In this document: positions 172-49,700 of the stretch, one piece after another
How the letters are laid out: the number at the start of each line of letters is the position of its first letter
How positions within the stretch are numbered: position 1 is the stretch's first letter
Assembly (NCBI RefSeq): GCF_037042905.1
Contig: NC_087250.1
Span: forward strand, 23,686,001-23,750,000
Direction: 5' to 3'
DNA length: 64,000 bases
DNA from: Lytechinus pictus
Lineage: Eukaryota
Program-made: the position numbers and the translations under genes
Notes under the pieces: generated by a model
Seen by the model: only the letters and a program-made list of their open reading frames with translations
What the model was told of the DNA's origin: nothing
The model's database searches: none

Positions 172-321
172 TACCTTGGTCACATTTGTACTACGGCGGC
201 TGTAAGGCGAGTCGTAAAAACAGTCGTTTTAACATTTTTTTTGTACCAGCTACATATAGGTGGTTTGAATAAAAATGAAGACTCGCCGTACGGCCGCCGT
301 AGAACAAATGTGACCAAGGTA
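172..321. mobile_element. Palindromic MITE, PIF/Harbinger-like
   Basis: TACCTTGGTCACATTTG...CAAATGTGACCAAGGTA long TIRs, TAA on both flanks; related right end at about 15310-15405. Confidence 0.75.
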
Positions 322-422
322 TAAGCTTCATGTTACAGTACCCAGCTCGCATTTCAGTGAGCTACCCTTCGGAGATGTAACTAACCCAGATTACATTGTT
401 TGCCCTCCCCCCCCCCCCTCAG

Positions 423-617
423 CGATGATGTCACCGGGTGGAGGTCCCATGATGCGCCCCATGGGCCCCAGCGGTCCTATGATGGGGCCAGGTGGACCCG
501 GAGGACCACACTCTATGATGCACCAAGGTATGGGACCAGGAATGCATCCCCGGATGCCTGCCCAGGATGGTATGAGGGGTATGAGCCCTGACCAACGCAT
601 GATGATGGCCAATTCTG
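423..617 (+). CDS. BCL9: BCL9/legless-like, penultimate coding exon (gene begins upstream of window)
   Basis: Polypyrimidine + cag acceptor ending 422; Met/Gly/Pro-rich frame MMSPGGGPMMRPMG...MMANS; donor G|gtaagt at 617/618, phase-compatible with the next exon (G+GG=Gly). Confidence 0.8.
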
Positions 618-987
618 GTAAGTAGAAATAGAATGTAAAATAGGCATTAATTGTTTATATTTACTGGTATTCACTTGGACCATTTCATGAAACTGGTTTT
701 AATAACAAATTTGCAAAAGCAGTGAAAAGCTACTGAAATCCTTCAATATGATTGGTTATAGTTATTGTTTATGTCATTTTCTGTGTCACTATTTCATAAA
801 ACAAATAATGCACTTGATCTGTCGTGTGTAGTAAAGGCTTGGTTTGTTTAGATTGTGCACACTGGACATTCACATAAAGGCTTGTTCATGGTGCAGCACA
901 TTTACACATAAACCTCGCTTACACTGCATTTCCACTGATGCTCTCGGTTCTGTTTTGTAATAGCTATTTCTTTGGCTGTCTTTTCAG

Positions 988-13612: not shown

Positions 13613-14034
13613 GCCCTCATGAATATTGTCCATCCCATTTGATCACCAAATTTCTAGAGTTTGTGATTTTCAGAGCATTGGCAATAGCAAAATAATTTGG
13701 TGATTTATTGTTGTTTATTTTGGTGCTTAATATGAAAAATGAAGCTTTATTTTTGTCCCTGTGAAACCACGAAAGAGACAAATCCTGAGGATGTTTGATT
13801 TTGCTCACTTGCACTTTCAGATTTTCTAATGCATGTAAAGGCATACACATATAGATCGATTCCCATTGGGCAAACTTTTTCTACCCCCTCAAAAAGGGCC
13901 ATTTTCATTACGAGATCTATTCTGTTGTTCAAATAATAAAAAGTTAGAATGTGCATGCCCTCTACGTTCGTCTGCAGAGAGTGCAAGGGTCCTCATCTCA
14001 ATTTTTCGCCTGTCATACCGGAATACCACACAAA

Positions 14035-14212
14035 ATGAGTGCTTTTGAGCCTCCTGCTGTTGTCGTTAATATATTTGCAGTCATCGGTTTCATTGCAGTT
14101 GCTTACAAATCCTTGAGGGTTTTGTTATCGATATTGAAGAATGTCAAGACGTTTGTTTTGGCGAGACCGCTGGGCCTCGCTACAAATCCCAAACGGCATG
14201 GAAAGTGGGCGG
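14035..14212 (+). CDS. HSD17B12: HSD17B12 exon 1
   Basis: caaaATG start; MSAFEPPAVVVNIFAVIGFIAVAYKSL...HGKWA; donor G|gtgagt. Confidence 0.9.
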
Positions 14213-17200
14213 GTGAGTATCGGGGTGGCGCACCGGGCGCTAGCGGGTGGGGATGGCCAAACCCTGGGAGCTCTGGCTCGCGAAGCGGGTCGGAGCATTA
14301 CATTTACATTACATCATGATTTCCTTTAAGATTTTAGAATTTTAACTCTATGCCCGTCTCTATGTCGATATTTGATATCAAATTCATCGAATTAAGATAA
14401 TCTTGTCATGAGCTTTGTGACTTTTTTGTCTCTTGATTTTTTTGAAATTTTGGCAGCCTTGGCCTTGCCCGTCTTCAGTAGACAGCTGGGGCCGATTGCA
14501 CGAAAGGGTCTTTCCAAGGACCGTCTTTCGTGTCGCCCATCTTTTATGATACGCCATGTGAAACGCATTTCAAATAAATTATCTGCAAATATATTTTATT
14601 TGTCCGTTAAAATAAACAAAATATTTGTTTATAAATTGATGTGATATCTCATGAAATTGTATAAAATTTGATTTAAAAGCAAGCTTACGAATTTTATTTG
14701 TTTATCATAAATTTCAGAAACACCCCGCTTATAGCGCATCATAAAAGATGGGCGACACGAAAGACGGTCCTTGGAAAGACCCTTTCGTGCAATCGGCCCC
14801 TGGCAGCCGTCTGTTTCGAGGAGTTTTTTTAACATTTTTATATTTTTTTAATTTCTCCTCATACACAGACGGCTCGCTATCGTGCAGCCACCATTAGGGG
14901 ACTTACAGTGCAAAATCCCCCCGTCGGGGCTCTTCAATTTTTGTCTTTAATGAATCAAACTTTTGAAAATTAACACGACCGAAATGCAAATTAATATTCC
15001 CTCTTGGCATTAATTGCCAAAAAACGGGGAAAATCAAGTTAAAATGAACAAAAACAGTGACTTACCTCGGCTGTCGCGCAACTTCACTGCCCTGTTTTAT
15101 CCATACTTAATACACATAAACACATGGCCATTGAGTCCCCTGTACAGATCGCGCTAGAACTTCGGTCTCTGTATTTGGTGAGTGAAGCCAACGGAGTTCA
15201 GCTGAACAACCAACATAACAGAGACCGAAGCTTTTGGTCTAGTCTTCAGTTGCACAAAAGAGGCCGTCCGGCGAGTAAAAAAGAACAGCCGTCTTTATAT
15301 TTTTATAGTTACGTGGTTTGAATGGTTTGAATATAAAAAATGAATAAAACTGCAATTTTCGACTCGCCGTACGGCCGTCGTATAGAGCAAATGTGACTGA
15401 GGTAGGGGCCTACTTTATATTGTACGCTCTAGTGGCGTATGCAGGGGGGGGGCATACCTGCCAACCATTCCGATTTTGGCGGAATTATACCGATTTTTTA
15501 GCCTCCATTCCGAATTCCGAATTTTTAAACCAAAATTCCGATTTTTAGGTCAATCAATATAGTGTTGAAATTATTGAAACGGCTGTATGATGCGACTAAC
15601 GCATAAGCGGCTGTAACATACGACTAACGCATAAACAACTGGGGCGCACGGCTAAGTGCTAAGTGCACAGTTCCATTGCAATTGCATGTGAAAATTACGA
15701 GCAGCGGCCACAGCGGCGCGGCCGATATTAGCGTTGACTTCCGGAACAAAATGGCGGCTGACATCGGCTCGCGAAAGTGCCAGTTTTCAGTGAGGACACG
15801 TTTTCAAAATCCACGAACATCGGAAAAACCGTGAAAAATTCACTTTTTTAGACCCCTTGTTTCCTAACTACGATGTATAGAATTAAGGATGGTGATATTT
15901 TTGACGCGAAATATGGTGATTTAGTAAGATAATTTCACTTTTTATTCGAGGTTTTGCTCTTTTCGCCGGATGATTTTGTATTGTGGAATGAGTTAGTGAA
16001 TGAGTCGTGTACTGGTGTCTAGAGTGTGTTGGTAATATCATTGATGAGTCTGCTTACCGGCGCCTGATTACCCGGCCGATCGGCCGCGCCGTGCACATCG
16101 GGAGGCTCTGCCACAGTTACTCAAGTTTATCCCTACGCAATGTTAAATTGATCTGTACTTTATTTTTTCGAATAATTGTCAAATTTGTGAGAAAGAAAGC
16201 GGCAATTATCAACTTTCGAGTCAAGTTGATCCATCGGAGCCGAACGCCAAATCTACTTGCTTCGCTTGCCTAAACTCCCGGCGCCCGAGTTGCAGCGCCT
16301 CAGCCTCCCAGTCTCATCGGCGCACCGCAAGTGCAGTGGTGGGTGCGGGTCGGGCGTATTCCGCCGTATTACTTCGGCTCCGTTTTTGTCATGGCTGAAA
16401 ATATGCTTTCTTATGCCAACAAGCACTTATCTAATAAAGGTTATGATATAACCTTGTCCTCAGTCACTACTCCTGTGTGGTGAAATATAAACATGAATAA
16501 GATGACAATGTTTGGCTTATTTTGATGCATATGATAGACTTGATATAATTATAAATGATAAATAAATGTTCTGGATCTGGATGTATACGATGCAGGGCCC
16601 TCCTGGGCATAAACGCATCGGGTGAGAGAGGGCGGGGTGAGGATTAGAAAGCTCTGTCAATGGCCTTCTTGAATGAGCTTGTCGATGTTGAGTTGATGAC
16701 AGCGTCACTCAAGTGATTCCATCACTTGTTAGATTTTTTTGCACTCAGTTTTTAATACAGTAGGCTAGGCCAACTTGAATCTGAATTAATGATACAAAAT
16801 ATCCCTTGGCCCAAAACTCAATTGAATTCTTGAAATTAGTTTTTTTCTGATTAAAAAGAGAATCTTTCCAGAAACTTTCCAACAATAGAGGGCCTTACAA
16901 AAATATGCTCAAAATCAAATTATTCCTAAATCTATATAGATTTCAATGAAAACAAATCACACCTGAATGAAACTGGGTGTATTTTTTTGTCACAAACGTG
17001 ATATCTTAAAGACCCTTGTTTTAATGTTTGATTGATAAATGATATTATATTACATATAAGTAGACTAACGTTACATGTAGGTCATCCTGTGGTATGGTTA
17101 AGAGGGTAAATTTGCTTTAAAAAGGGTAGGGAAATGCTACTTTTACATGCAGAAAATGCAGAGTCCCTACCATGGGAGGGGGAAACCATCTCGCGCGCGA

Positions 17201-20200
17201 CCTGCTCGGCGCCCTCGTGACTTTGATACTGATTTTTTATTATCAAAGGTTGGCAGGTATGGGGGGGGGGGGTTACAGGGGTTCAACTGACCCCCCTTAA
17301 ATTTTTTTTATACCCAACCCTCCCATGTTTTTTTTTTTCTTGTCAATATATTGGGGGAGGTGCACCTATGATTGGTGGTGAAGACCATTTTTTTGTCAAC
17401 ATTTCATTCAGTTTGAAAACCCGCCCCTTAAAAATGTCTGCGTACGTCACTGGTACGTTCGTAATTTTAAATAAGGAAAGAGAGAGAGGGGGGAGGGTGG
17501 TCGAGACAGTGATGATTGTATTTTTTTATCTGACATCCAGTCGATCTTACCCCCCCCAAAAAAAAAAAAAAAAAAAAAAACACCTCCCTGTCCTTACCAG
17601 ATCATTCTCCCGCGAGCAATTTGTTCCCACTTATGATAAGGACGGAATGTCGACCTTATTCATGTTCTCCTATTTTTTTATTTTTTTCCTCCTATCATCG
17701 TAAGTGGGAACAAAGAAATATGCTCTCTGGTAGGGACAAGGAGGTGACGATTTTTTTTTCTTGGGAGTGGGGGAGGGCGCGTTGAGGGACATCAGGGTTG
17801 GAGGAAGTTTTATTTATTATGACTGTCAAACAGAAGTTTGAATTTTGAAATCACTTTCTTTCATTCTTTCTTTTTGTTTAAATAGTCGTGACAGGAGCTA
17901 CTGATGGTATTGGCAAAGCTTATGCCGAACAGGTAAATAGAAAAAAACTGCCTTACAAATAAGTTATTTAAGAAGTCTATTATAAACATTTAAAAGTTTG
18001 TCATAAGTTGCATATCTGATTAGTTTAAATGGTCATTATTTTGAACAAAGTATGAATGCAACAATGATAAGTGTATATTGTCACATTTACAAATCACAAA
18101 TATACTAGTACTCTGATGCAAGTTGTTCAGTTGTCCCTGTTTTAATATGGAAGGAAGTCATAAAGTAGGCATGTGTGATGCAGGATGAATATTTAATTGC
18201 ATGTTATAGGTCTCTTGGTAAAAGTAATTTTATCAACTTTTTATTTATATTTCAGCTTGCAGCTAAGGGTCTCAACATCTTTCTGCTGAGCAGATCTGCA
18301 GACAAACTCAAGGATGTTGCAACTCAGATCGGTAAGGTAGATGATGATGATGATGATGGTGATGATGGTGGTGATGATGATGATGGTGGTGGTAATGATT
18401 ATGATGGTGATGATGGTAATTATGGTTATGATGATGATGGTGATGACGATGATGATGGTAATTATAGTTATGATGATGATGGTCATGATGATGATGGTGG
18501 TGATGATGGTGATGATGATGATCATGATGATGATGGTAATGATGATGATGATGATGGTGATATAGTGATGATGATGATGATGGTGATGATGGTGATATAG
18601 TGATGATGATGATGATGGTGATGATGGTGATATAGTGATGATGATGATGATGATGATGATGGTGATATAGTGATGATGATGATGATGCTTATGAAGGTAA
18701 TGCTGACAGTTTAAGTGAAGAACTTGCTAATATCACTTATAGCACCTTCAGAAGTCTCTTAGCTCTCTATAATAATGCAGCATCATTACCCCATCTTGAG
18801 CAGAGCAGCATGGTAGAAAAGTATTTGATTTTTCATACCCTTGGTGGTGCTGTTGTAGCTTAAAATAGGCGTGGTCCAACTGGCCGATGGACATAAAACA
18901 TACTCGTAACGGATACAGCGGACAAGCAAAATTTCGGGTTGGGTCCTTCCATTTTCATCCGCTCCAGACAATGGACAAAATGGGCGAACAATGAAATCAC
19001 AGAGGACGGGCTCGATGGATATAAAGCGTATGAAACATGTATTCAAAGAGTCCACAATAGATACATAACGTTTTCCAACGGATAGCAAGATTCTTTTCCG
19101 TTTTACATATTCTCTGCAAGTGTAGTGGGACCAAGCCTTAAATACTAATTTCCAACCCCTTATCCTTATCTTCCCTCCCTTAATACTCAGAGCAAAAGTA
19201 TAAGGTGGAAACAAAGACATTTGCCGTTGATTTCACCGGTGCGGCAGATATGTATCCTTCCATCGGAGACCAGCTAACTGGACTAGACATAGGAGTCTTG
19301 GTTAACAACGTTGGCATGTCATACAGCTTTCCTCAGTACTTTTGTGAACTAGCCGATTCAGAGAAGGTAATATTGTTTTTAAAAAATGTAAACACATGTG
19401 CAAACTAGATGAAAAATATACACAAATATTCAAGATGAGATCAGGAAATAAAAAAAACGTTGAATTAATTTCCTTGTAGTTATTAAAATAGTATAACTTT
19501 TATGTTTGATCGAAGATATCATGACAATTTTCTAAATCCTTCATTTTTTAGATGTAAGCATGTGCCCGTAAGTAGTGGGCACAAACTCTCAAAAAGGAAA
19601 TAAATAAAAGAGTGAATGAGGACACAATAGGACACATACTTTATTCAACATAATAACGAAACTTGGATTGAGATGTTTTGTGATGGACGTTGAAAGAATG
19701 CTCATATCTCTGTGTTCAATGGACCATATCGCATGAGATTTATACCAGTTATATAAAACAGATGCTAGTTTGTGATTATAAATTATATACAATATGATTT
19801 TGTAACTTTCACATTACACTCATTTAAAGTGTCATGAATATTTTTTGTGGGACACGCTGTAAAAAAGCTGGATAGAGCTTATTGTATGCTGCTCTACACA
19901 CGACATTGAAGCTACAGGAAAAATACTCCATGACACAATTAATAGTATATGGGACCATACCAATGCTTAAGAAACAACCCACACATGCAGATGCAAGAGA
20001 AAAATTGTGGAATTTTGCGTGCTTGACCTTGGAGTGCTTTTCAGTGGCCTCAAACGAGCATGTTGTAGCTTTATCCAGCTACTGATATTGATGACCCCAA
20101 CAGCGAAAAAATTTGAATAAATGAATAGAGAAATATCACACAAGTTTGACATTGGAAATTTCATTAATATTGAAATTAGAATAAGAAAGTCGTTATTTAA

Positions 20201-23200
20201 ATGGATGTAACATTATGAATTTATGTCTTTATTGTTTCAACTATTTTCACAAAAGGGGGATATGCACAATAAATGTTTGAAATATCATATATACATTTTT
20301 TTTCTCCAGTAATGTAAAATCATGTTTGATTCCTCATGAAACTTGATAAGTCAACGTTTTTCAGTTAGGGTCTTCCCATGGGTAAATTGCCAATTCGTCC
20401 ACTCGCCACATGGTCTACTTTCATTTAGTCTAATGCCATTCTGTAAATCAACATTTCCTCTAACAACCATTTGGTCCAATAACCATTCGGTCCATTCATC
20501 ACTTCGTCTAAGCACCATTTCGTCTATTACCATTTCGTCTAATAACTAGTTGGTCTAATACCCATTTTCTTTTCATTCATTTTGCACAATTATTTTTTTT
20601 TTTTTCCTCGTGTCAGAGGTTTTTTATTCATTCAATTGCCAATTTAACATGTATTAACATTCAGGGTCTTAGAGACAACATCCGAGATGTCGTCTAAAAG
20701 AATTTCATATAATTTAAACACATGCCATATAGAATAACTGTTGTATGGTTTACCTTGAAAATAATTAATCATATACATCAAATAGATTGCATATTGAGCA
20801 TACACAAGGACTGTATTTATATCTGTTGCTTTTTCATGTGTGAAATCAAAACCAACTATTAATAATTTTTCGTTTAATATAATTTTTTCTTTAAACATTA
20901 AATTAATCAAATCCATAATACGTTTCCAGAAAAGCTTTACGCTTGGGCATTCTAAAACAACATAAACAAAAGATTATGTTGTTTTCCAGAAAATACATAT
21001 TGCACAATTAACACTTAAGTTTAATTAGACCAAATGGTATGGACTAAATGGCTATTGGACCAACTGGTTATTAGACAAAATGGCATTATACTAAATGAAA
21101 ATAGACCATGTGGTGAATGGAAGAACAGATGGTGGACCAAATGATAGTAGACGAGTTGGCAATTGGACGAATTGGCATTAGATGAATTGGAAATAAACCT
21201 TCCCATGTGCCTGTGGATCATGTTTGTCTATGTACATCTAAATTATTTTCTGCTCAGTCTAATCTTATAAACCTTGCTGTAAACATGCCCTAGAGGTACT
21301 TAGTTGACTTCTATTTCGTTAAAATGACTACAGAGTGTACATTTCAGTTTACGTTGAAGATCAGGCTTCATTTAGACTAGAGAAAAATCTTTTGATGTAG
21401 CCAAATGTAATTGCAGTAATTGTAAATATTACTTGCCATCCTCCCCATTCAGTTATTCTGCTTATATTTTCATTTACAGTTTCTTCCCAACATCATTAAT
21501 ATCAACTGCCTTTCTGTTGTAATGGTATGTATGTAGAATTATTTTTTTTAAATATACACATTGAAATTTACAGGTCATTCAGAGATATTAAAACATAAAT
21601 CATTTAAAGTGGCAGTGCTAAGCTTCCGTTTTCTGCTTATTCATCTGAACGGCATCTAGGGAAGAATTTCATGAAGATTTTTTTTCCTTTTTTTTTTCAC
21701 TGCTCTCGGCCAATCAGAAACAAGGATTTTCAGTAGCTTAGAACATCTGTCAGTGGAAGTCACAAAAATCTTCATGAAATACCTGATGACACATTTTAAA
21801 AATGTACCTATTGATTGGTGATTGCTGTGTAGCTATCTAGATCTCAAAATGATGACTCAATTATGCTTTTAGTCATGAAGAGTGTCAACAGTGCAAATAG
21901 AGATGTATAGGATTAGTCAAGATATTGTCTGCCTTATTATTACAGCTGTATTTGTTTTTAAGTGTGTTATGGCATTGAAGAGCAATTCCATGCAGTGAAC
22001 TATTTTATTACATGATTTCTTTTTAAGATTATGACAAGATGTTAAATCTCTAAATAATCACTCATTTTTTATGCCTTTCCCACAACTGTTTGTTATCCCT
22101 TTGAATTTCTTTTCATCAATAATCCTGATATTTTCTTATAATATTCTTATTTCTTGGTTTTCTGTGTTATAGATGACCAACCTTGTTCTTCCTGGTATGG
22201 TGGAAAGGTAAGACAAAAAAAAAGATAAAAAGCACAAGAAAAAACAACAGCTAAACAACAATACTTAATAATCCAGTCTGTAAAAATCAAATCATGTGCA
22301 GGTAAAGTTTATTTTAGTCAGGCAGATTTTATTATTAAACAAACAAACAAGAGTTCTAAGCATTAGAACATATTGGGGAGGAACCCCAAATTTACCAAAC
22401 TAAACGTCTGGCAGTGCATCGCTGCTGCTGGTTTCGACAAGAGGGGCACCAAAAAGTGCCCCTTTCACAAAAAATTGTATGCTGATGAAGATTTGCAGCA
22501 TTTTCTAAACACATTCAAATTTGTTTTTACAAAAGAGAGTATCAAATACCTTTGATTTAATGCTATTTTAAATAAATTTGAGATTGACAAATTTGAACTT
22601 TTTGCAATAAATTATTTTTTTCTCATTTTCTTTACTTTCATTTTCACAATGTGATCACCCCCCCCCCCCAAAAAAAAAACCAAAAAAACAATAATGCATA
22701 AAAACATATTTCACTGAAAAGTAATGAACTTTGAGCTACAAGATAAGGTATATCATGTACACTTCATGAACAAACTTTCATACTTTCATTCAAAATCGAA
22801 TTCATTCAAAACTTGGGTCAAAGTTGGAACGCATAGTGTACAGCAAATTGGCAACTCTAATTCTTCTATGTTATTCATTTTATTTGCAGGAAGAGGGGTA
22901 TTATCATCAATGTCTCATCTGCTTCTGGAATGAATCCAAGCCCAATGCTAACAGTCTACTCTGCTACTAAGGTAATGTTTTGCAACCTATACTATACATA
23001 ATTTATCTTTATTTGCCAATAAAAAACAAAATTAAAACATTAAATCATTAGCACATCAAACCAGGCTATAAAAATAAGATGGAAAATCCACATACATGTA
23101 ATATTTAAATGTAAGAATAGAATTAAAGCCCAGAAGGTGTTTCACAAAATATAAGTATGACTTAGAGTCGCACTTAAATGCAGATGCATACATGATATGC

Positions 23201-34311: not shown

Positions 34312-35690
34312 CCATGGAATATATCCTCTTGCTTTCATGTATTTCCTATGCTGGTGTAACATTTTTATGACCCTTTCCATCAGACCCTTTTCAGGTGCTA
34401 TACTGAAGTCTGGGTCTTGTGATGTGCTGTCATTAAACTCATTTTACTAATGATAAAAATAACAATAGACAAATGAAATGTGATAAATATTTTACGAGTT
34501 AAAGGGAGGCTAGGAGGTAAAACCCTTTAATTTTCCCAATTTAATAAGCAAACACTTTTGGCAGTAGCTGTGGTAGAAACAAAGACGGCGATTGCGCATG
34601 GAATGGCTTTCACGTGACTCGATTCAGCCGGTTATTGGCTGAATTCTCGTACTGTATTTATAGAAATAAAATAATTACAATAATATTAATGATAATATTA
34701 TACACCACTATCATAATAGAGGATCGTCTATTAAATATAATATCTGTGCCACGATACAGTAAAAAAAAACTGTCGATATAGACCAACCAATTGAGACAAG
34801 AAAATCAAATTAGCTGGTAATCTCTAGGGGGTCCTTTGATACATTGATGTCATCTGTGCCTGGGAGGCGAAAAGCGAACTGAATCACTGTGCCCAGCAGG
34901 TCTCTCCTCCGCATAATGTTTCAATGCATAAAATTATTCAAGGGAAACTAAATTAGTCTGCACTCCGGATCGTTCAAGAACACAGTATGAAACTGCTGGG
35001 AGGTCTTGGACGAAAATTGATGAACGGGAGCAGAAGTTTCGGAGTTGACGAAAAACTGCAAATTTGCCGTTTGTCCCAAGTCAAAGGCAAAACTGTTGTT
35101 TTGATTCATCAATTTTCTACAAACACCTCCAAGCAGTTCTTTGTCATTTGATGGTCATTTTCAATACATTTTCTATGTTCTTGAACCCTCCGTCTGTCGC
35201 AGAGCAAAAAATCCCTAATGTCATACCACGCAGTCATAACGTAACGTACAGGGGCTGATTGCACGAAAGGATCTTTCCAAGGACCCATCTTTTATGACGC
35301 GCTTTATGCGGGAAATTTTTGATAAACAAATAAAATTTGTTAACTTTTAAATTAATTTTATACAATTTCATCAGATATCACATCATTTTTATAAACAAAG
35401 ATTTTGTTTAATGTAACAGACGAATGAAATATGTTTGCAGGTAGATCTCTAGATCCTTTTTTTAAACTGCGTTTCACATGGCGCTTCACAATAAATGGAA
35501 AGACAGTTCTTGCAAAAATTATTTCGTGCGACTGCGATTGGCCCCAAGTAACTTGCGAACCTTCCTTCGTTCCTATAGGCGTTGATGCACAGGTCAGCAG
35601 CTTTCCGTAAGATAAAAGATAACGATATTATCAATATCATATTGCAGGCTTTGAAGTGTTCTCATGGGCAATGTTTCAGTTATATATGAC

Positions 35691-35825
35691 TCAAAAGTCA
35701 GGCTCATCAACAAAATCTACTATATCTTCACGTTGCGATCGCTTCAGCGCCTTCTTTAATTTCTCCTTAGTGGCCTCGACGCCATTTACGTTTCGCCACT
35801 GAAGTAACATCTGGAATATACATTC
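35691..35825 (-). CDS. Death-domain gene coding exon 3 (second half of second DD, stop)
   Basis: Strong acceptor ttctctgtcttccctctacag; ECIFQMLLQWRNVNGVEATKEKLKKALKRSQREDIVDFVDEPDF*; below the ORF-track length cutoff. Confidence 0.85.
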   Translation of the reverse strand, partial: ECIFQMLLQWRNVNGVEATKEKLKKALKRSQREDIVDFVDEPDF

Positions 35826-38800
35826 CTGTAGAGGGAAGACAGAGAACGAGAGAAAGCGATGTCTTAAAGTCAGGCTTAAGGGTTGGTTTTCTTGTTGCAG
35901 TGTTTAATCAAGGCAGCAAATTTAGAAAAACATATTGGTACCTTTAGGTTTCGTGAAAATCTATTACAGGCTAAGTGAATTTTTTTCAATGTTTTTTTAT
36001 TTGTGACGTCATGCAAGCAGCTCCACCATACAGGTATATCATATGTTTTTAACAGAAAAATGGTGCAATATGAATGCTGTGGATCATCAACATCATCAAT
36101 ATAAATTCTATGAATTTGATTCTTTAATAGAACATGATAAAAATAGTTTTCTTACAGAAGGGGGTAAGAAATTATATGTTTAATGATATATTCCATGCAC
36201 AAATTAATTCAATTTTTTTAGAATAACATTTTTGTCTCGCCTGCATAGCAGAGCGAGACTATAAGCGCCGCTTTTCCGACGGCGGCGGCGACGGCGTCAA
36301 CATCAAATCTTAACCTAAGGTTTTAAGTTTTTAAAATGACATCATAACTTAGAAAGTATATGGACCTAGTTCATGAAACTTGGACATAAGGTTAATCAAG
36401 TATTACTGAACATCCTGCCTGAGTTTAAGATCACATGACCAAGGTCAAAGGTCATTTAGGGTCAATAAACTTTGGTCAAGTTGGGGGTATTTGTTGAAAT
36501 ACTATCATAACTTTGAAAATTTATGGATCTAGTTCTATGAAACTTAGACATTAGGTTAATCAAGTACCACTGAATATCCTGTGTGAGTTTCAGGTCACAT
36601 GACCGTGGTCAATGGTCATTAAAGGTCAATGAACTTTGGCCGTGTTGGGGGTATTTGTTAAATTACCATCCTAACTCTGAAAGTCTATGGATCAAGTTCA
36701 TAAAACTTGGACATAGGAGTAATCAAGTATCACTGAACATCCTGTACAAGTTTCAGGTCACATGACCATGGTCAAAGGTCATTTAAGGTCAATAAACTTT
36801 GGCCGTGTTGGGGGTATTTGTTGAATTACCATCCTAACTCTAAAAGTTTATGAATCTAGTTCATAAAACTTGGGATATAACAGTAATCAAGTATCACTGA
36901 ACATCCTCTGTGAGTTTCAGGTCACAAAACCAAGGTCAAAGGTCAGTTAAGGTCAATAAACTTAGGCCATGTTGGGGTAATTGTTGAATTGCCATCATAA
37001 CTTTGAAAGTTTATGGATAGAGTGAATGAAATGTGGACATGGGTGTAGTTGACAAGTCTTAAGTCACCGTTCAAATGTCATTTATGGTCAATGAACGTGG
37101 TATTATGTCATTATATGAATGGTGTTTTGGTGAATGATTATTTTATAGTAGTTTTCAAAGTTAGCACTGCTGCTATATTAAATCGCATAATGCAGGTGAG
37201 ACTGCCAGAGGCGTTCCACTTGTTTACAATTGAAAGCTGTTCTGTCCAGTTCCTACATAACAGAATTGATCATTTGGTGCATTATCTTTACAAAGATCAA
37301 ACTAGTGCTGTAGCCGAACTGCCGAACCGAACGGAAGTTCGCCGAACTTGGCACTTCCGAACCGGACCGAACCGAACCAAACACAAAGGCCTGGTTCGGT
37401 AAAAAAAATTAGGCACATTCATTTTACTACGTAATATAATGAAAAGCGGGGACTACATATATTTAAATATAAAATGAAAAAAAAATATTGGTTAGTGATT
37501 GTGCACAATAAGAATTCCACACAAAATATTTTTTAAATCCACTATTTAAGCTCACATCTTGTCTTTGATTGAGTTATCAACTTAAGAATATTTTATTAAC
37601 ATGAATATATTTTTTCTTCATTAAATGAGGGGACATTTGAAGCTAAACTCGGTATAAAAGTGTGGTTGAATTACGTATTGCCGTAATCGTAATCGGACCT
37701 AATTGTTTTCTATTTAATTAAGAAAAAGGACAAGACATAAATTCATTCCTCGTAAATGACAAAGTATGGCAGCTTCGGTCTCGCCTTTGATTGAATTTTT
37801 ATCAGTCTCAGTTTTTTTATTACCATGAATTTATTTATTTTTCTCATAAAATGTGGGGACATTTTAAGCTAAACTCGGTTAAAAAGTGTAGTTGAATTAC
37901 GTATAACTGTAATCGATCATGATTGTGATCGGCGTACATGTAATTGTTTTGTATTTAATAATAGAAACATTGTAAAGTCAAAAAGGGGCCTAAGCTTTCG
38001 ATCCTAGCAGAATCTTCATCGGAGGCAAAATGACAAACATATAAAGTGGAACAACCATAATATAGACCACAAACAAGCTACAGCAACACTAGAAACAAGG
38101 AGACAAAAGGGGCATTAGTGAGTAGAGAAGACCAATCAGGTTAGTGAAGGGGATGAAAGAAAAGGAGTAGGCAGACACAAAGGGAAGTTAGTGTAAGTAA
38201 GGCCAAGAGGGATTAAGATAATGAGGCAGGCAACATCAAACAGGATCTGGAACAAAACAGTGATAGAGGGATGAATAACTAGAGAATTAGTGAGAGGTGG
38301 GTCAAACAGGTTACAAAGAAAGGCTTAATAAACTGGTGCATAAGAGTGGGGGGAAAAAAGAAGAAAAAGAATGAGGAACAACTGATAATGTGCAAAAGAC
38401 ATATAAGTATATATGATAAAGCATTAAACAAACTAAGAGAAGAAGGTAAGTGTAAATATGTATCTATAAGTGATATGTATATAAATATATCCAAAAAAGA
38501 AATGTATATGAAAAAATATATAAATATATACACATATGGTGTAACTGATATGGTAATCCGCTAGGTGTGACGGGAAAAAACATAAGACTATATAGTAGGA
38601 AAGAAAAAAAATCTGTATATGTGAAAAAGAGGAAGCAAATTGCCTAAAAAGGTAAAAGCAAATATAGAAGAGAGGGGGTGTATTATGAAGAAACCATAGT
38701 ATACATGTAAATAAGCAAATGTGGTAAATCTAAAAGAGGTGAGTGGAGAAAAAACAAAAATATATATATATATATATAATAATTATTATATCGCCTGAAT

Positions 38801-41800
38801 AAGGAAGGAAAAATTGGAGCTGAGCTTGTATGAGATATGGGAGGAAAGTAGAGTAAGAAACTATAATGTAACTATTCAAAAGAGCTGAGGGGAAAAATTA
38901 TATGTATATATAAATTGAAAGTGGATAGGAAAGAAAAATCAGTCGTTCCCCTCTTGGATGTTCAGGCCATGAGGTTGGGTGGTGCGAAGTCGTCTCATCC
39001 AGAGCTTCTCCCTGCTAGTACGGACTGAGTCAGGACGGGTACCTAAAGATTCGATGCCCTGTAGCATCATGTCAGTGATGGAGTGGTTGGGGAGGTTAAA
39101 ATGGCGGCCAACTGGAGTGTCCAGCTTTGCTGTGTTGACGGTGGATCTGTGCCCGTAGAATCGTTTCTTGAGTGTGGTCTTGGTTTCCCCTATGTATTGT
39201 ACCCTACAAACTCTGCAAGTGATGAGATATACAACATTAGTGGTAGTGCATGTGATGTTGCCCTTGATTTGGTGAGACAGGCTGGTAGAGTTGCTGGTGA
39301 AAGTATCGCCCTCGTGAAGGTGTATTTCACATATGATGCACCTGTTGCTGGTGCATTTGAAGGTGCCATGCTGTATGGGAGAAGAATGGTTAGTGAGGGA
39401 GGGCACTTCAGCACGAACAATGAGGTCCCTGAGATTCGGTGGGCGTCGGTATGCTAGAAGGGGAGTATCGGGAACGGCCTGTTGGAGACGATCAGAAGTG
39501 TGTAAAATGTGGTGGTTATCAAACAGGATTTTGCGGAGAGGGGGTAGATTGGGATGGAAGGTGGTCACAAGCGGTAATAATAGAAACAAGTGGAGTGCCT
39601 CTGGCCGTCTCACCTGCATCACGCGATTCAATATAGCAGCAGTGCTGATTTTGAAAACTACTATAACTCGCACAAGATGTTCAGTGATACTTGGTTACTC
39701 TTATTTCCACGTTTTATGAACTAGACCAATACACTTATAGAGATATGATGGCAATTCAACAAATACCCCCAACGTGGCCAAAGTTCTTTGACCTTACATG
39801 ACCTTTGACCTTGATCATGTGACCTGAAACTCGCACAGGATGTTCAGTGATACTTGATTACTATTATGTCTAAGTTTTATGAACTAGACCAACACACTTT
39901 CAAATTTATGGCTGTAATTCAACAAATACCCCAATTTGGCCAAAGTTCATTGACCCTAAATGACCTTTGACCTTGATCATGTGACCTGAAACTCGCACAG
40001 GATGTTCAGTAATACTTGATTACTATTATGTCCAAGTTTCATGAATCAGATCCATAAACTTTCAAAGTTATGATGGTAATTCAACAGATACCCCAATTCG
40101 GCCAAAGTTCATTGACCCTAAATGACCTTTGACCTTGGTCATGTGATGTGAAACTCATGCAGGATGTTCAGTGATACTTGATTAACCTTATGTATAAGTT
40201 TCATGAACTAGGTCCATATATTTTCTAAGTTATGATGACATTTCAAAAACTTAACCTTAGGTTAAGATTTTGATGTTGATTCCCCCAACATGGTCTAAGT
40301 TCATTGACCCTAAATGACCTTTGACCTTGGTCATGTGACATGAAACTCAGGCAGGATGTTCAGTAATACTTGATTAACCTTATGGCCAAGTTTCATGAAC
40401 TAGGTCCATATACTTTCTAAGTTATGCTGTCATTTCAAAAACTTAACCTCAGGTTAAGATTTGGTGTTGACGCCGCCGTCGCCGTCGGAAAAGCGGCGCC
40501 TATAGTCTCACTCTGCTATGCAGGTGAGACAAAAACTGACATAAATTCATTCCTTGTGACTGACAAAGTAATGGTAAAGTATGTATATTTCACCTTCTGA
40601 AATATACATATCAATATTAAAGATAAATAAATAAGAGATGAAGGAATGAGGTTAGAAAAAACAGAAAAGATAAAAATTCAAAGCAAGTCAATGCATGTTC
40701 CCTGATCGTGTACCGGATATGGTTGATAAGGAAAGTTGAAACAGGAAGTCCAAACAACCTGCTCTCAGTTGCTATTATGCTGGTAAAATTCATATTCCGA
40801 ATTTGAAATGTTTTTCCATTGTCAATATTTTCTAAAAAGTGGTTTAATCTGGTCATTTACTGAAAATGAAATGATAAATTTTCAGTTCTGTCTTGGTTCT
40901 GACGATCAACGCCGAGTGATTTCATAACACTAAAATACACAGTACAGTCCCATGTACTCATTTTCGTGTTGGAAATATGTTTGAAGTCACTCTAGTGTCG
41001 ATCTTTCGGGACCAAGAATGGACTGATATTTTATCTTTTTAAAGTAATTGATTGACCAGATTTAACCACTTTTCAGAAAAAAGGGACTTTCATATTCTGT
41101 AGAATGTGAATTTTACCAGTATAATAACAGTTGAGTGGAGGTTGTTTGTCTACTGTTCCGACATTCCCGATCAACACTTTCCAATCGGAGAAGCTGCGTT
41201 TGCAATGGCATTGTAATCGATCATGATCATATCTACATGGAATAATCAATGAACAAAAAAATATTCTGTTCTTTGTAATTCTGTTTCTGTCCTCATTTTC
41301 TCGTTATCAATATTATTTTCTTTGTTTTTTTTAATTCAATTTAAAAATGAAAGTAGAAATGACTCTTATTTTTGGTTTCAAGATTGAAATAAATAAAAGA
41401 AAGTTATGCAGCAATTTTTATAACCATTCTTTTTAGAAACAAAATTTATTATAAATATACGACAGAATTTTTATATGATAATTTGTTTTTAGTTTCATAT
41501 GTTAATAATTTAATTGCGCATTTATTGCCGAACCCCGAACCGAACCAAAGTTCGGAAAAAATTTGCCGAACCCTACCGAACAGAACCCGAACATGCCGCC
41601 TGACTTGCAGCACTAGATCAAACCTAGCATTCAAGAACTTCAAGAAGACCTTACCTTTACTAGTGGATACTGTTCTTGCATAACTTGAATTTCCGAGTTG
41701 TTAAAGCCGAGAAAAGTGCCCACCATTCTCCATTCTGCACCAAGCTTGTGAGAGAGGTCCCGTAACTTGATTTCGGTGATTTCGTGGCTAATCTGATGGG

Positions 41801-42843
41801 GGGCTAGTGGCATTGGGGCATCGAAGGGCTGGGGCTGGGCTTGGGCAACGTAAGCCGGGGCTTGCGCAGGAGGGTAGTTATTCTGCTGTTGGTGGTGGTT
41901 CATCGGCTCTGGCGGTATCGGTCTCATACCCTTGGGAACAGAGCGCCGGCATTCACCTGTGTAGGGATAAGTATTCAAGATCATAGGATTTTCAAGGATC
42001 ATATGATTTAATACAAGTTCACCCTTACAACAAGTTGATGATTTAATAATTTAATAAAAGCATACAAATTAATTAAATATATGTACATTGGTGAAGGTTT
42101 GAATTTGAAAAGGTATTTTAATATTAACAATCACATGAAATTAACAATCATGTGAAATTTACATCGTATGATAAAATACAACTAATGAATCAATATACAT
42201 AAAACAATCATAACATCTTCAAATCATGAAAGATAACACACGAGGGGATACAGGCTGGAATAGACAGGAAAAGGAGTTGAAGGAGATGTAGGAAGAGTAC
42301 TCTGAAAGCCGGAAGTAGAAGAGGGATGTAATGGAAAGTGAAAAAATTGTCAAAGAATAAGATAATTATAATTTTTTTATTTTATGACATTAACTACGAG
42401 CAGCTTCTCCATATGTCTTGTGACATTAAAAAAATACGAGATGAAAAAAAAAAAGACTTATTGTATATGGCCTTCCATAAGAAAACAGGGAGGGAAGGAA
42501 AGACTGCCGGGGGGGGGGGAGAAAAAAAAAGAAAGAGAGAGTACTGATATCAACCCTCACCAGTTCTGACTTTCTCAGCAAGGCACCGGAGTTTAGTCTT
42601 ATTCAACGCCTCTATCAGCAACCCACGCTCCTGAGACGGATGCTGGTTATTGTGCCACGTGTACAGCATCTGACTGGCGGCCTGTTCTATGTTCCTCATG
42701 TACTGCATCTCCCAGTTGGATAGTCGGGCTTCTGTGATGCCAAGGTAGAGACCAAGTTTTCTCCAATCGTAAGGACCGAGCTGCTCGCTGATGTAGCTCA
42801 GCTCCAAGGCATCGAGAGGAGTATTAGGGTCAAGTGATGTCAT
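35691..42843 (-). CDS. Tandem death-domain protein (DD-linker-DD), 239 aa, 3 coding exons
   Basis: Exons 42843-42561 (283 nt), 41956-41655 (302 nt), 35825-35691 (135 nt) total 720 nt, GT-AG, phases 1 and 0 match. Both halves show the death-fold pattern LxxLSxxLG-xxWRxLGxxLG...xxAxQMLxxW...LxxAL...R. Confidence 0.85.
36229..37224 (+). mobile_element. Helentron-associated (HINE/DINE-like) element with ~163-bp internal tandem repeats
   Basis: T-rich insertion site, 5' hairpin GTCTCGC..GCGAGAC, subterminal IR GTCTCGCCTGCAT / ATGCAGGTGAGAC, 3' mini-hairpin GCCAGAGGC then CTTGTT; four GGTCAAAGGTCA-containing units; no TSD. Confidence 0.75.
37970..39574 (-). mobile_element. 5'-truncated Penelope-like retroelement (GIY-YIG endonuclease, Cys-rich linker as in Neptune-type)
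   Basis: Frame PLVTTFHPNL..PLLAYRRPPNLRDLIVRA..CTSNRCIIC..ITCTTTNVVYLITCRVCRVQYIGET..RFYGHR..HFNLPNHS..REKLWMRRLRTTQPHGLN; stop at 38939; flanked by 14-bp direct repeat TAATAATAGAAACA. Confidence 0.88.
37988..38026 (-). ncRNA. Minimal type I hammerhead ribozyme in Penelope 3' end (core variant)
   Basis: Minus strand GCCU-CCGAUGA-A-GAUUCU(GCU)AGGAUC-GAAA-GCUU-AGGC: stem I GCCU/AGGC, stem II hairpin, palindromic AAGCUU stem III; the core has C where the consensus CUGANGA has U. Confidence 0.65.
39585..40535 (-). mobile_element. Second HINE-like copy, inverted relative to 36229-37224
   Basis: Reverse-complement termini (AACAAGTGGAGTGCCTCTGGC..GTCTCACCTGCAT; ATGCAGGTGAGACAAAAA) and ~162-bp TGACCTTTGACC units. 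Confidence 0.78.
41655..41956 (-). CDS. Death-domain gene coding exon 2 (Pro/Gln linker plus first half of second DD)
   Basis: ccctacacag acceptor; GECRRSVPKG...ITEIKLRDLSHKLGAEWRMVGTFLGFNNSEIQVMQEQYPLVK; donor gtaagg. Confidence 0.85.
42561..42843 (-). CDS. Death-domain gene coding exon 1 (first DD)
   Basis: ttttttcag|G ATG; MTSLDPNTPLDALELSYISEQLGPYDWRKLGLYLGITEARLSNWEMQYMRNIEQAASQMLYTWHNNQHPSQERGLLIEALNKTKLRCLAEKVRT; donor G|gtgagg. Confidence 0.85.
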
Positions 42844-42845
42844 CC

Positions 42846-43190
42846 TGAAAAAACAAATTAAAGTCTTGTGGGTTATTGGTGTACTGTAAAATTTGGATTT
42901 TTTTTTTTTTTTGGGGGGGGGGAGATAAGAGACCAAGCCTTGTCAAGGAGTAAGAACCAAGGTGCTTTGAGCTCCAAAGCATCTAGAGGAGTTTTAGGAT
43001 CCAATGACTCGATCCTAGAAAAAAATATAAAAGTCTCTTGGGTCATCAGGTTTTTTTCTTTTTGTGGGAGAGGGATATGATAATAGACCAAGCCTCCTCC
43101 AATCACAAGAAGTATCCAGCTGCTCGCTGATATAGCTGATCTCCAAGGCATCTAGGGATTTTGGGTCAAGTGACATCATTCTGAAATATA
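42846..43190 (-). pseudogene. Two tandem degenerate copies of the acceptor plus 5' part of death-domain exon 1
   Basis: Acceptors at 43181 and 43015 (real one at 42845; spacing 166/170 bp) are followed by MMSLDPKSLDALEISYISEQLDTSCDWRRLGL and IESLDPKTPLDALELK, versus the real MTSLDPNTPLDALELSYISEQLGPYDWRKLGL. Confidence 0.8.
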
Positions 43191-44587
43191 CAAATAGTGG
43201 AGATCTGTGCTATGGCTCAGTTGATAATTCCAGGGTTCAAAACCACTGTAGCACTCATGTCCTTTGGCAAGGCTTTATCTACATTTGCCTCTCTCCACCC
43301 AGGTGTGGTAAATTACTAAATTGGTACTCGGTATGAATGGATTTCTTGATTGTTTTTGAGCCCTTTCAGTGTAGCCATACTACAAAGCTGGGATAATAGT
43401 ACATGTACACAAGACTAATAGAAACATTGTATTAAATGCAAATACATGTACATGTAGTTTCCAAGATCACTCATTTGTAAAATTGGAAAGTTTGAGAGGG
43501 AAATAGGTACAGAGCAAATATCTTATCTTAAACCAAGCTGCTCACTGATGCAGCCAAACTCCATTTGCAAAATAATGCCTAGAAAACAATGTTATACCCG
43601 GTATGTTGCCCTCATAAGTCAAAATCAGAAAGTTGGGTTGGTCGGTCGGTTTCCTTTCTTACTTTTAGTAAATATCTGTAACTGGCGAACTGCTGCAAAA
43701 AGAAAATTATGTATGGGATGAATACATGTATGTACTCAGACATGTCAAAAAGCAAAGTGCTTTCTAAAGTCATTGAATACAAGTTTGAAAAATTGCTTTG
43801 CCTAAATCTGAAATTTCCTCACAAAACATTGGTCTTCCTAATTAAAATAAAACAAAAAACACCAACCCGTTATTTTCTATTCTATGCACTTGTTCACTGC
43901 AACCACTCTGCCTGTGGGGTATGTAGATCTATGGTATGCCAATGCAGTACAGAGCAGTAATATCACTTTTGTAACCAAAAATACATATTCCATACAGTTG
44001 CAATTCATTTTTTATTTAGTAACCTGAGGATCATTTTTCATTCACCAGAGCACTCAAAATCTTGAATTTTTGGCATATTTTTGTGTACGTCCTCTACATG
44101 TATTGGTGGAAAGTTAAATTGCAAGAAAATTGTCATTTTTCAATCTCTAATTTTAATTCAGAAAAAATAATTAAAAGAACTCAATTTACTTTAGGGCCAA
44201 GTTACATGTATATGATGAATTGCTGTAATGGAGACTAACTGTGTAAAGAAATCAAGCATTTGTCCCCTAGAACAAGAGAAAACAAGCCAAACATTGCCAA
44301 CCTTATTTCACCACACCTAGACCTACATGTAGTTAGGTAGGACAACAACAAAAACGAAACAGCATTTCTACTAACAAGCATTACCTTAATATATTCTTTT
44401 TTAGCATTATTGTCAAAGACATTGCTCAAAACTTACCATAAGATTTCCTAAATAGTGAAAAATAATGCTTAAATGCTCCATAAAATGTGTCTGGAAATGC
44501 ATAGATCTATTTTGGCCCATCCCCATCATGCCCATAGGCTATACTGTGTGGGTTAGTGGCTGATAATAGGCATTTTTAAGTCTTTAT

Positions 44588-49039: not shown

Positions 49040-49246
49040 ATTCTGCCTAAGCTGCACTCCGTGCAGTGCAGTCCCACACACTGAATAACATGTTGGTCAA
49101 CCAGCATGCACCGGCACCACCACGGCACCAGATTCCAGAAAGGCAGCCGGCAGAATCACATTAACAATCACAGCTGATCGACTGTGCAAGTCACAGCTTC
49201 GAAAAACGTCATAAGACAAGGAAAAATGAAGGTGGTATCAACTTAC

Positions 49247-49345
49247 CTGAAGTTTCAATAAAATCTATCGGCTAGACGTGAATTAAGTGAGAATTCAAGG
49301 GGAATTCAGAGATGGATGTCGCTTCTGAATTCCGCCACTTCCTCA
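49247..49345 (-). other. Putative non-coding first exon of the death-domain gene
   Basis: Perfect donor CAG|GTAAGT at 49247/49246 on the minus strand, in non-repetitive CpG-containing sequence upstream of a coding exon whose ATG sits 1 nt after an acceptor; 5' boundary is a guess. Confidence 0.4.
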
Positions 49346-49700
49346 CTGATGACACATCATTGATCGATCGAAAATTAATAACGCTGAAATTAGAACAGTC
49401 GTTTTCTCCATTGAAAAATTGTACTTTACTTTTTGTTTTAATTTGTGGGAGACTCTACTCATGAAAAATATTAAAATGCAATTTTTTATTAACATTTTCT
49501 TTAAAAAATATATATTTATAATTTTGCTTGACAAACAAGCAAAACATTTTTGATTGAATTTGTAATTTTGACTAGTTTAAGACTAAGTAAATAAGGGGAA
49601 CCCCCATATTCATGATGACGTATAGTCCTTTGCCAGGACTGTTCTACTTTTCAGTTGATCAATAACACAATCCTCGACCTCTACGCCCGAAATGAAAACA
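49336..49700. promoter_or_regulatory. Candidate promoter motifs: ETS core, NF-kB consensus, CRE half-site
   Basis: CACTTCCT at 49336-49343; GGGGAACCCC at 49595-49604 fits GGGRNWYYCC; TGACGT near 49616. Short motifs, could be chance. Confidence 0.3.

What the first reader, a model, noticed from the sequence alone, without database searches (positions are those of the whole stretch)
35691..42843. Small protein made of two death-fold domains and a Pro/Gln linker, hidden across a TE-filled intron
Seen: three phase-matched exons splice to 239 aa. These give DD1 (...LSYISEQLGPYDWRKLGLYLG...AASQMLYTW...LLIEALNKTKLRCLAEKV), a ~55-aa P/Q/A-rich linker, and DD2 (...LRDLSHKLGAEWRMVGTFLG...CIFQMLLQW...LKKALKRSQREDIVDFV). 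No kinase, TIR, caspase, NACHT or transmembrane segment is present. Known: the familiar two-module death-fold adaptors pair different folds (FADD DED-DD, CRADD/RAIDD CARD-DD, ASC PYD-CARD), and MyD88 pairs a DD with TIR. Inference: a DD-DD adaptor or decoy could bridge or cap two DD assemblies in an invertebrate innate-immune or apoptotic pathway. The last exon is not in the ORF track, so automated views would miss the architecture.
Basis: partly seen in the sequence, partly recalled or inferred. Interest (0 to 1): 0.7.

Follow-up and report, generated by a model that had tools for sequence, protein, structure and literature searches.

The report
Sea-urchin twin death-domain adaptor gene
This is a real, spliced and conserved sea-urchin gene for a small protein made only of two different 'death' docking domains and a flexible linker; the design is already known from sponges and is common in marine invertebrates, and the protein likely connects intracellular immune sensors to a second signalling protein, but no binding partner has been shown.

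Summary
Three GT-AG exons splice to 239 aa, and RNA reads or transcript contigs show both junctions. A non-coding 5' exon with an in-frame stop fixes the start, so no other domain is attached. Both halves are true death domains (DD) by Pfam and fold, and FADD and CRADD orthologues lie elsewhere in the genome. The gene is not hidden: it equals RefSeq LOC129262792 (Lytechinus pictus), with orthologues down to Diadema. The DD-DD design is not new either. Sponge DD2 is published, small twin-DD proteins recur in sea stars, a crinoid and Strongylocentrotus, and this scan earlier noted one in a sea squirt (e1-9188702). What is added here is that the two DDs appear to have different origins (AU p=0.03). 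DD1 groups with DDs that head NLR genes (5 of 9 loci checked), whereas DD2 lies outside that group and is shared with one ZU5-DD gene. This fits an ASC-like bridge (about 0.4), but binding was not tested. Verdict: new member of a known kind, modest interest.

The parts
49247..49350 (-). non-coding first exon (5' end approximate)
   Evidence: joint 42843/49246 in X19 reads and four contigs; GT donor at 49246; in-frame TGA 12 nt before the ATG after splicing
42561..42844 (-). coding exon 1: ATG at 42843, whole DD1 (aa ~10-94), ends in phase 1
   Evidence: Pfam Death 37.1 bits, over the cut-off; AF2 model of DD1 alone best matches PIDD DD, Z 13.9
41957..42560 (-). intron (604 nt, GT-AG)
41655..41956 (-). 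coding exon 2: P/Q/A linker (aa ~100-150, 41942-41790) and first half of DD2 (from 41783)
35826..41654 (-). repeat-rich intron (5829 nt, phase 0) that splits DD2; holds ~164-nt tandem arrays at 36340-37018 and 39665-40470 in inverted orientation and a GIY-YIG-like element fragment at 38939-39694
   Evidence: (GIY-YIG 22.3 bits, just under the 22.6 cut-off)
35691..35825 (-). coding part of exon 3: second half of DD2 and stop codon
35200..35690 (-). 3' UTR (runs at least to 35200; contigs extend about 35 nt further)
   Evidence: contig pieces of X1 and X15 span 35200-35824 without differences
42969..43195 (-). two decayed partial tandem copies of the start of exon 1, not seen expressed
   Evidence: tblastn and blastn; zero depth in bin 42955-43225 in 4 of 4 runs

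Best explanation
The gene encodes a spliced, conserved 239-aa protein of two death domains of apparently different ancestry joined by a predicted disordered linker, and it likely works as a cytosolic bridging adaptor in which DD1 would co-assemble with the death domains that head sea-urchin NLR sensors and DD2 would recruit a second death-domain protein. Shown: gene structure, transcription, the DD fold of both halves, absence of other domains, conservation of both DDs over the linker, and DD1's kinship with NLR-type DDs. Inferred from established death-fold biology (PIDDosome, Myddosome, ASC; recalled): DDs act by homotypic helical assembly, and a flexible two-module protein couples two such assemblies. 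Not shown: any partner. The downstream partner is open. FADD (leading to caspase-8) and CRADD are present in the genome and are candidates, as is a possible DD-caspase-like gene at C8:14.82-14.84 Mb.
For: Both halves are DD, with no contact needed between them in the model (pTM 0.46, linker pLDDT under 50). Identity to L. variegatus, S. purpuratus, a Logan protein and Diadema: DD1 100/89/71/59%, DD2 95/80/67/63%, linker 80/49/27/25%. The gene is single-copy in this genome by three searches, which fits a conserved hub better than a fast-turning paralogue. DD1 falls in one branch with NLR-type DDs in three trees (97/90, 85/94 and 90/94 support). Of 9 DD1-like loci whose neighbourhood I read, 5 are followed by a NACHT exon. 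DD1 and DD2 as one clade is rejected (p-AU 0.03), unlike several other twin-DD proteins whose halves are sisters. This genome's caspase-8 shows no DD, and 13 of 14 caspase-like loci show no DD in the stretch read upstream (about 20 kb; about 8.6 kb for caspase-8, which covers its DEDs), so most caspases could not bind a DD-NLR directly. PMC11508797 (passages read) reports no ASC or PYD outside craniates, and DD-headed NLRs in sea urchin.
Against: DD1 is only about 35% identical to NLR DDs. Its branch also holds non-NLR DDs: 4 of 9 loci had no NACHT nearby, and it includes a DD-RhoGEF and another DD-DD. Kinship therefore does not show binding. The trees rest on 86-89 columns, and only one of three gave the DD1/NLR branch starred support. 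The first locus set was chosen by likeness to DD1; the tree built mostly on Pfam-found loci gives 90/94. One caspase-like locus has a DD-like exon about 16 kb upstream, so direct NLR-caspase coupling, as argued in PMC11508797 and reported for Hydra in PMC3879445, may make an adaptor unnecessary. DD2 could not be assigned to any known adaptor class. Expression was low in the three raw runs, and no immune-challenge data were seen.
Confidence: 0.4

Rival explanations
1. It is a decoy or cap: a DD-only protein that binds one or two DD assemblies and blocks their growth, like the CARD-only and PYD-only inhibitors of mammals (recalled).
For: It has no effector domain. DD1 resembles the sensors' own DD, as decoys resemble their targets. 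S. purpuratus has paralogues with a decayed DD1 but an intact DD2 (P0005, P0006, P0016). Gene models ending inside DD2 exist in L. pictus (older model) and Diadema. A kappa-B-like palindrome lies about 250 nt upstream of the first exon (shuffle P about 0.02-0.04, noticed post hoc), which would fit feedback induction.
Against: Both DDs have been kept intact and conserved since the Diadema split in a single-copy gene; a pure cap would need only one DD. The truncated models were not shown to be real transcripts.
Confidence: 0.25
2. It is an adaptor in a death-domain pathway that does not involve NLRs, for example downstream of TNFR-like or Ig receptors with DD tails, or in a PIDDosome- or UNC5-like ZU5-DD complex.
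For: DD2's only close paralogue in the genome is the C-terminal DD of a ZU5-containing gene, 57 of 87 aa identical with the same phase-0 intron. The best structural matches are PIDD and RAIDD DDs. The genome holds at least 75 Pfam Death matches, and unverified earlier notes describe Ig receptors with DD arrays in it. A PxQx[S/T] TRAF-type motif (pattern recalled) lies in the linker of 9 of 11 homologues scanned.
Against: The ZU5 gene's DD nests inside the DD2 family, so it looks like a later copy rather than the source (support 89-97, though the alternative is not rejected, p-AU 0.19). The PxQx[S/T] motif arises by chance in 6-28% of shuffled linkers, sits at different places in Diadema, and is missing in P0003 and P0032. 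Structural rank among DDs differs by about 1 Z or less and does not name a partner.
Confidence: 0.25
3. It has a non-immune, non-apoptotic scaffolding role, as the DDs of ankyrin or THOC1 have.
For: DD2's best sequence matches among solved structures are THOC1, RIPK1 and ankyrin DDs. No immune-linked expression data were seen.
Against: These matches are at 25-30% identity, generic for DDs. DD1 comes from the branch enriched in NLR-head DDs.
Confidence: 0.1

Closest known systems
Sponge DD2 (Geodia cydonium; Wiens et al. 2000, pmid 10800079; seen only through passages of PMC9798719 and PMC5793068)
   Same: a protein described as comprising two death domains and proposed to be pro-apoptotic
   Different: no sequence of DD2 was compared here, so orthology is untested; here the two DDs have different ancestry and one is NLR-type
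Uncharacterised small twin-DD proteins of other echinoderms (Patiria LOC119730315, Acanthaster LOC110976849, Antedon XP_071944301, S. purpuratus LOC100892038)
   Same: about 200-256 aa, two DDs, no other family over its cut-off
   Different: their DDs do not group with DD1 or DD2 orthologues; in some the two halves are sisters (internal duplication), here they are not
ASC/PYCARD (PYD-CARD inflammasome adaptor)
   Same: two unlike death-fold modules on a flexible linker, with the N-terminal module akin to the sensors' own effector domain; the proposed mode of work
   Different: the modules are DD and DD, not PYD and CARD; binding and polymerisation are untested
FADD (DED-DD) and CRADD/RAIDD (CARD-DD)
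   Same: small two-module death-fold adaptors with a C-terminal DD
   Different: the N-terminal module is a DD; true orthologues of both lie elsewhere (C18:24.27 Mb and C3:23.91 Mb)
Hydra DODE ('double death' protein; recalled only, not found in searches; paper not held)
   Same: recalled as a two-DD protein proposed as an adaptor for DD-NACHT proteins
   Different: could not be read or compared here; treat as an unverified lead

Membership tests
Death domain (PF00531), both halves | profile score over the curated cut-off | tested here: met
   two stretches, 72.5 bits for the whole protein; DD1 alone 37.1 bits against a cut-off of 22.6
Death domain (PF00531), both halves | six-helix death fold closest to DD rather than DED, CARD or PYD | tested here: met
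   DD1 model: PIDD DD Z 13.9, rmsd 1.7, 88 aligned; best CARD 9.7, PYD 8.4, DED 8.3. DD2: RAIDD DD Z 14.3, rmsd 1.8, 89 aligned
FADD | N-terminal DED | tested here: not met
   no Pfam DED match; the own-genome DED profile scores negative; the fold is DD
FADD | orthology to FADD | tested here: not met
   a DED exon and a DD exon 2 kb apart at C18:24.27 Mb match FADD at E 1e-20, against about 1e-4 for this protein
CRADD/RAIDD | N-terminal CARD | tested here: not met
   no Pfam CARD match; the own-genome CARD profile scores negative
CRADD/RAIDD | orthology to CRADD | tested here: not met
   CARD and DD exons at C3:23.91 Mb match CRADD at E 2e-13. Paralogy of DD2 to the CRADD DD is neither shown nor rejected (p-AU 0.4)
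ASC/PYCARD | PYD plus CARD architecture | tested here: not met
ASC-like adaptor (mode of work) | binds the sensor's effector domain with one module and an effector with the other | not tested
MyD88/IRAK/RIPK/NLR/UNC5 multidomain DD proteins | TIR, kinase, NACHT, ZU5 or transmembrane part in the same reading frame | tested here: not met
   an in-frame stop precedes the ATG and the stop codon follows DD2; no such Pfam family
Twin-DD-only proteins (sponge DD2 type; an architecture, not a defined orthology group) | two DDs and no other domain | tested here: met
Twin-DD-only proteins (sponge DD2 type; an architecture, not a defined orthology group) | common descent with sponge DD2 | not tested

The most novel reading that the evidence does not exclude
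This conserved single-copy echinoid gene is the missing ASC equivalent for the expanded sea-urchin DD-NACHT-LRR receptors. It was built by joining an NLR-type DD exon to an unrelated DD, so that many NLRs could signal through one hub to FADD/caspase-8, CRADD or a DD-caspase; its DD2 exons were later copied onto a ZU5 gene that would plug into the same output.
Probability: 0.17. Interest if true: 0.75.

Novelty: new member of a known kind. Interest (0 to 1): 0.33.

Why it matters
Sea urchins have a greatly expanded set of NLRs headed by death domains and no ASC (PMC11508797, PMC2858798; passages read), and how these receptors reach an effector is unresolved in what I read. A single-copy, conserved protein with one NLR-type DD and one unrelated DD is a concrete, cheap candidate to test for that link. 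If it proves to be only another twin-DD protein, it is one of many uncharacterised products of death-domain shuffling in marine invertebrates and matters little.

Tried and rejected

Upstream coding exons: rejected by the in-frame stop. A six-frame scan of the window found no further DD, DED or CARD exon apart from the decayed exon-1 copy.

Origin by internal duplication of one DD: rejected at p-AU 0.03, on 89 columns. DD1 as a FADD-type DD: p-AU 0.045. DD2 with FADD (0.10) or CRADD (0.40): neither shown nor rejected.

The weak Dredd_N hit on DD1 (17.8-19.2 bits, cut-off 27) is below threshold and also appears on unrelated DDs, so I did not use it. No RHIM core was found in 8 homologues. The profile comparison of A4 with A5 shares three rows between the two alignments, is circular and was not used. 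The ESM Atlas gave only generic Death clusters with scores under 0.9. No RNA holder on record was listed by the run search; the evidence comes from laid reads.

Allelic differences in X19/X20 reads: 4 synonymous and 4 non-synonymous among the 8 coding sites listed (the tool showed only its best-supported rows), too few to judge selection. A search for a database protein joining the C8 DD to a caspase found nothing (weak evidence).

Literature: ten searches found no paper on this gene or on an echinoderm DD-DD adaptor. Lange 2011 and Messier-Solek 2010 are not held; Hibino 2006, Robertson 2006 and Wiens 2000 were not read. Their text, figures or supplements may already list this architecture for sea urchin. 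No supplements were opened.
Full report
Observation. Each has an AG acceptor and the first two a GT donor. They total 720 nt and translate to 239 aa plus stop. Raw RNA reads of one study (X19, X20, X21; about 6% of each run read) and contigs of four other runs show the joints. The exon 2/3 joint has 5 and 6 reads in X19 and X20 and contigs in X1 and X15. The exon 1/2 joint has 3, 5 and 9 reads and contigs in four runs. A further exon ending at 49247 is spliced to 42844; it is seen in X19 and four contigs, not in X20 or X21. After that splice a TGA stands in frame four codons before the ATG, so the protein has no hidden N-terminal domain. At least 68% of the long intron is repeat-matched, with tandem arrays and a GIY-YIG-like fragment.

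Identity. The spliced protein is identical to RefSeq LOC129262792 of Lytechinus pictus, 'uncharacterized', 239 aa. An older model of 199 aa stopped in intron 2. Full-length orthologues occur in L. variegatus (93%), S. purpuratus (77-79%, two loci), an unnamed Logan contig (63%) and Diadema (51-52%). S. purpuratus also has paralogues with a decayed DD1. No orthologue outside sea urchins was recognised among the named hits. A full HMMER scan of 1.84 billion representatives returned 1065 hits at E 0.001 or better, of which only the top cluster covered the whole profile; I saw the best 150. In this genome DD1 has no paralogue above about 40% identity, and DD2 has exactly one close paralogue.

Domains. 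Pfam Death matches both halves; DED, CARD and PYD do not appear. AlphaFold gives two six-helix bundles and a disordered linker at 103-150. DD1 folded alone matches DDs first: PIDD DD Z 13.9, against 9.7 for the best CARD and 8.3 for the best DED (Foldseek agrees). DD2 matches the RAIDD DD at Z 14.3. FADD (DED and DD exons, C18) and CRADD (CARD and DD exons, C3) orthologues exist elsewhere. Both DDs are far better conserved than the linker.

Ancestry of the two halves. In three trees DD1 sits with exon-encoded DDs of which many head NLR genes (support 97/90, 85/94, 90/94). I read the neighbourhood of 9 DD1-like loci; 5 are followed by a NACHT exon and 4 are not. The loci were chosen by likeness to DD1. 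The tree used the Pfam-found loci (four rows left out as long or near-duplicate) plus four NACHT-verified ones. DD2 lies outside this branch, unresolved among canonical DDs. Holding DD1 and DD2 together is rejected at p-AU 0.03. The protein is therefore most likely a fusion of two unlike DDs, in contrast to several other twin-DD proteins whose halves are sisters. DD2's paralogue is the C-terminal DD of a ZU5-containing gene at C1:41.63 Mb. It has the same phase-0 intron, 57 of 87 identical residues, and 11 of 21 fourfold sites changed. It nests inside the DD2 family, which suggests that DD2's exons were copied onto the ZU5 gene, but the alternative is not rejected (p-AU 0.19).

Mechanism. From established death-fold biology (recalled), a protein with two DDs and nothing else can only bridge or cap DD assemblies. 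The unlike halves, the NLR-type DD1, single-copy conservation and the lack of DDs on this genome's caspase-8 and on 13 of 14 caspase-like loci favour a bridge from DD-NLRs to a second DD protein (0.4). Against this: DD1 is only about 35% identical to NLR DDs, and its branch includes non-NLR proteins. One caspase-like locus has a DD-like exon upstream. No binding evidence was obtained. A decoy (0.25), a non-NLR adaptor (0.25) and a non-immune scaffold (0.1) remain. Two sequence hints, a PxQx[S/T] motif and a kappa-B-like palindrome near the first exon, are near chance level or post hoc and carry little weight.

Comparison with what is known. A two-DD protein, sponge DD2, has been in print since 2000. 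I saw it only through passages and reference lists of PMC9798719 and PMC5793068. From the best 150 profile hits I picked 24 small proteins (132-323 aa). 18 of the 24 have two Pfam Death stretches and no non-death family over its cut-off. Names were looked up for 10 of the 24, and 4 of those are RefSeq models from Patiria, Acanthaster, Antedon and S. purpuratus. The unnamed ones may be fragments of longer proteins. PMC11508797 (passages) states that ASC and PYD are absent outside craniates and speculates that DD-NLRs recruit caspases directly. PMC3879445 (passages) notes a co-expansion of death-fold adaptors with NLRs and the Hydra NLR/DD-caspase interaction. PMC2858798, PMC2575513, PMC8195603, PMC3196919 and bioRxiv 10.1101/2019.12.13.875351 were read as passages only and gave context, not this gene. 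Hydra DODE is recalled and could not be verified. Ten searches found no paper on this gene; key sea-urchin immune surveys were not available and may list the architecture. Earlier notes of this scan, unverified here, include a sea-squirt twin-DD gene and many DD-shuffled genes in this genome.

Verdict. It is an annotated but uncharacterised echinoid gene of a known, recurrent architecture. Its one distinctive feature is the pairing of an NLR-type DD with an unrelated DD, which makes it a testable candidate for an NLR adaptor. Interest 0.33.

Noticed in passing
G000:C1:41626391-41633914 (L037, L032, L034): A ZU5-containing gene ends in a DD that is 66% identical to DD2 and has the same intron; it looks like DD2's exons grafted onto another gene (L. 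variegatus orthologue P0007).
   Followed up: partly
G000:C8:14823594-14841748 (L142, L143): Caspase-like exons with a DD-like exon about 16 kb upstream on the same strand; possibly a DD-caspase. Not shown to be one gene.
   Followed up: partly
window 49595-49605: A palindromic kappa-B-like site about 250 nt upstream of the first exon; shuffle P about 0.02-0.04, noticed post hoc, conservation untested.
   Followed up: partly
window 42969-43195: Two decayed tandem partial copies of the start of exon 1, each behind an AG, with no RNA depth.
   Followed up: yes
G000:C6:23815292-23837389 (L075-L077), 65-90 kb beyond the window end: A TIR-like exon followed by a DD exon on the minus strand, and a DD-like ORF (no Pfam hit) and a TIR_2-like exon on the plus strand: possible TIR/DD adaptor genes near this locus.
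   Followed up: partly
P0010 and P0014 (database models): Models in L. pictus (older) and Diadema end a few codons into intron 2 and would give DD1 plus half of DD2; annotation artefact or real short form is unresolved.
   Followed up: no
P0125 (Patiria miniata caspase-8-like X3): A sea-star caspase-8 with DED-DED-DD-DD-caspase architecture; the caspase-8 of this genome (C1:9.51 Mb) shows no DD.
   Followed up: partly
window 314-3773 (+): Long Pro/Gly/Met-rich ORFs without a Pfam hit; they resemble BCL9 by recall, untested.
   Followed up: no
window 13948-23000 (+): Exons of a short-chain dehydrogenase gene (adh_short hit at 22861-22998), convergent with the twin-DD gene; HSD17B12-like by recall.
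   Followed up: partly
window 36229-40535: Two inverted arrays of a ~164-nt tandem unit flank a GIY-YIG-like fragment in intron 2; RNA depth is very high there, most likely from other copies of the repeat.
   Followed up: no
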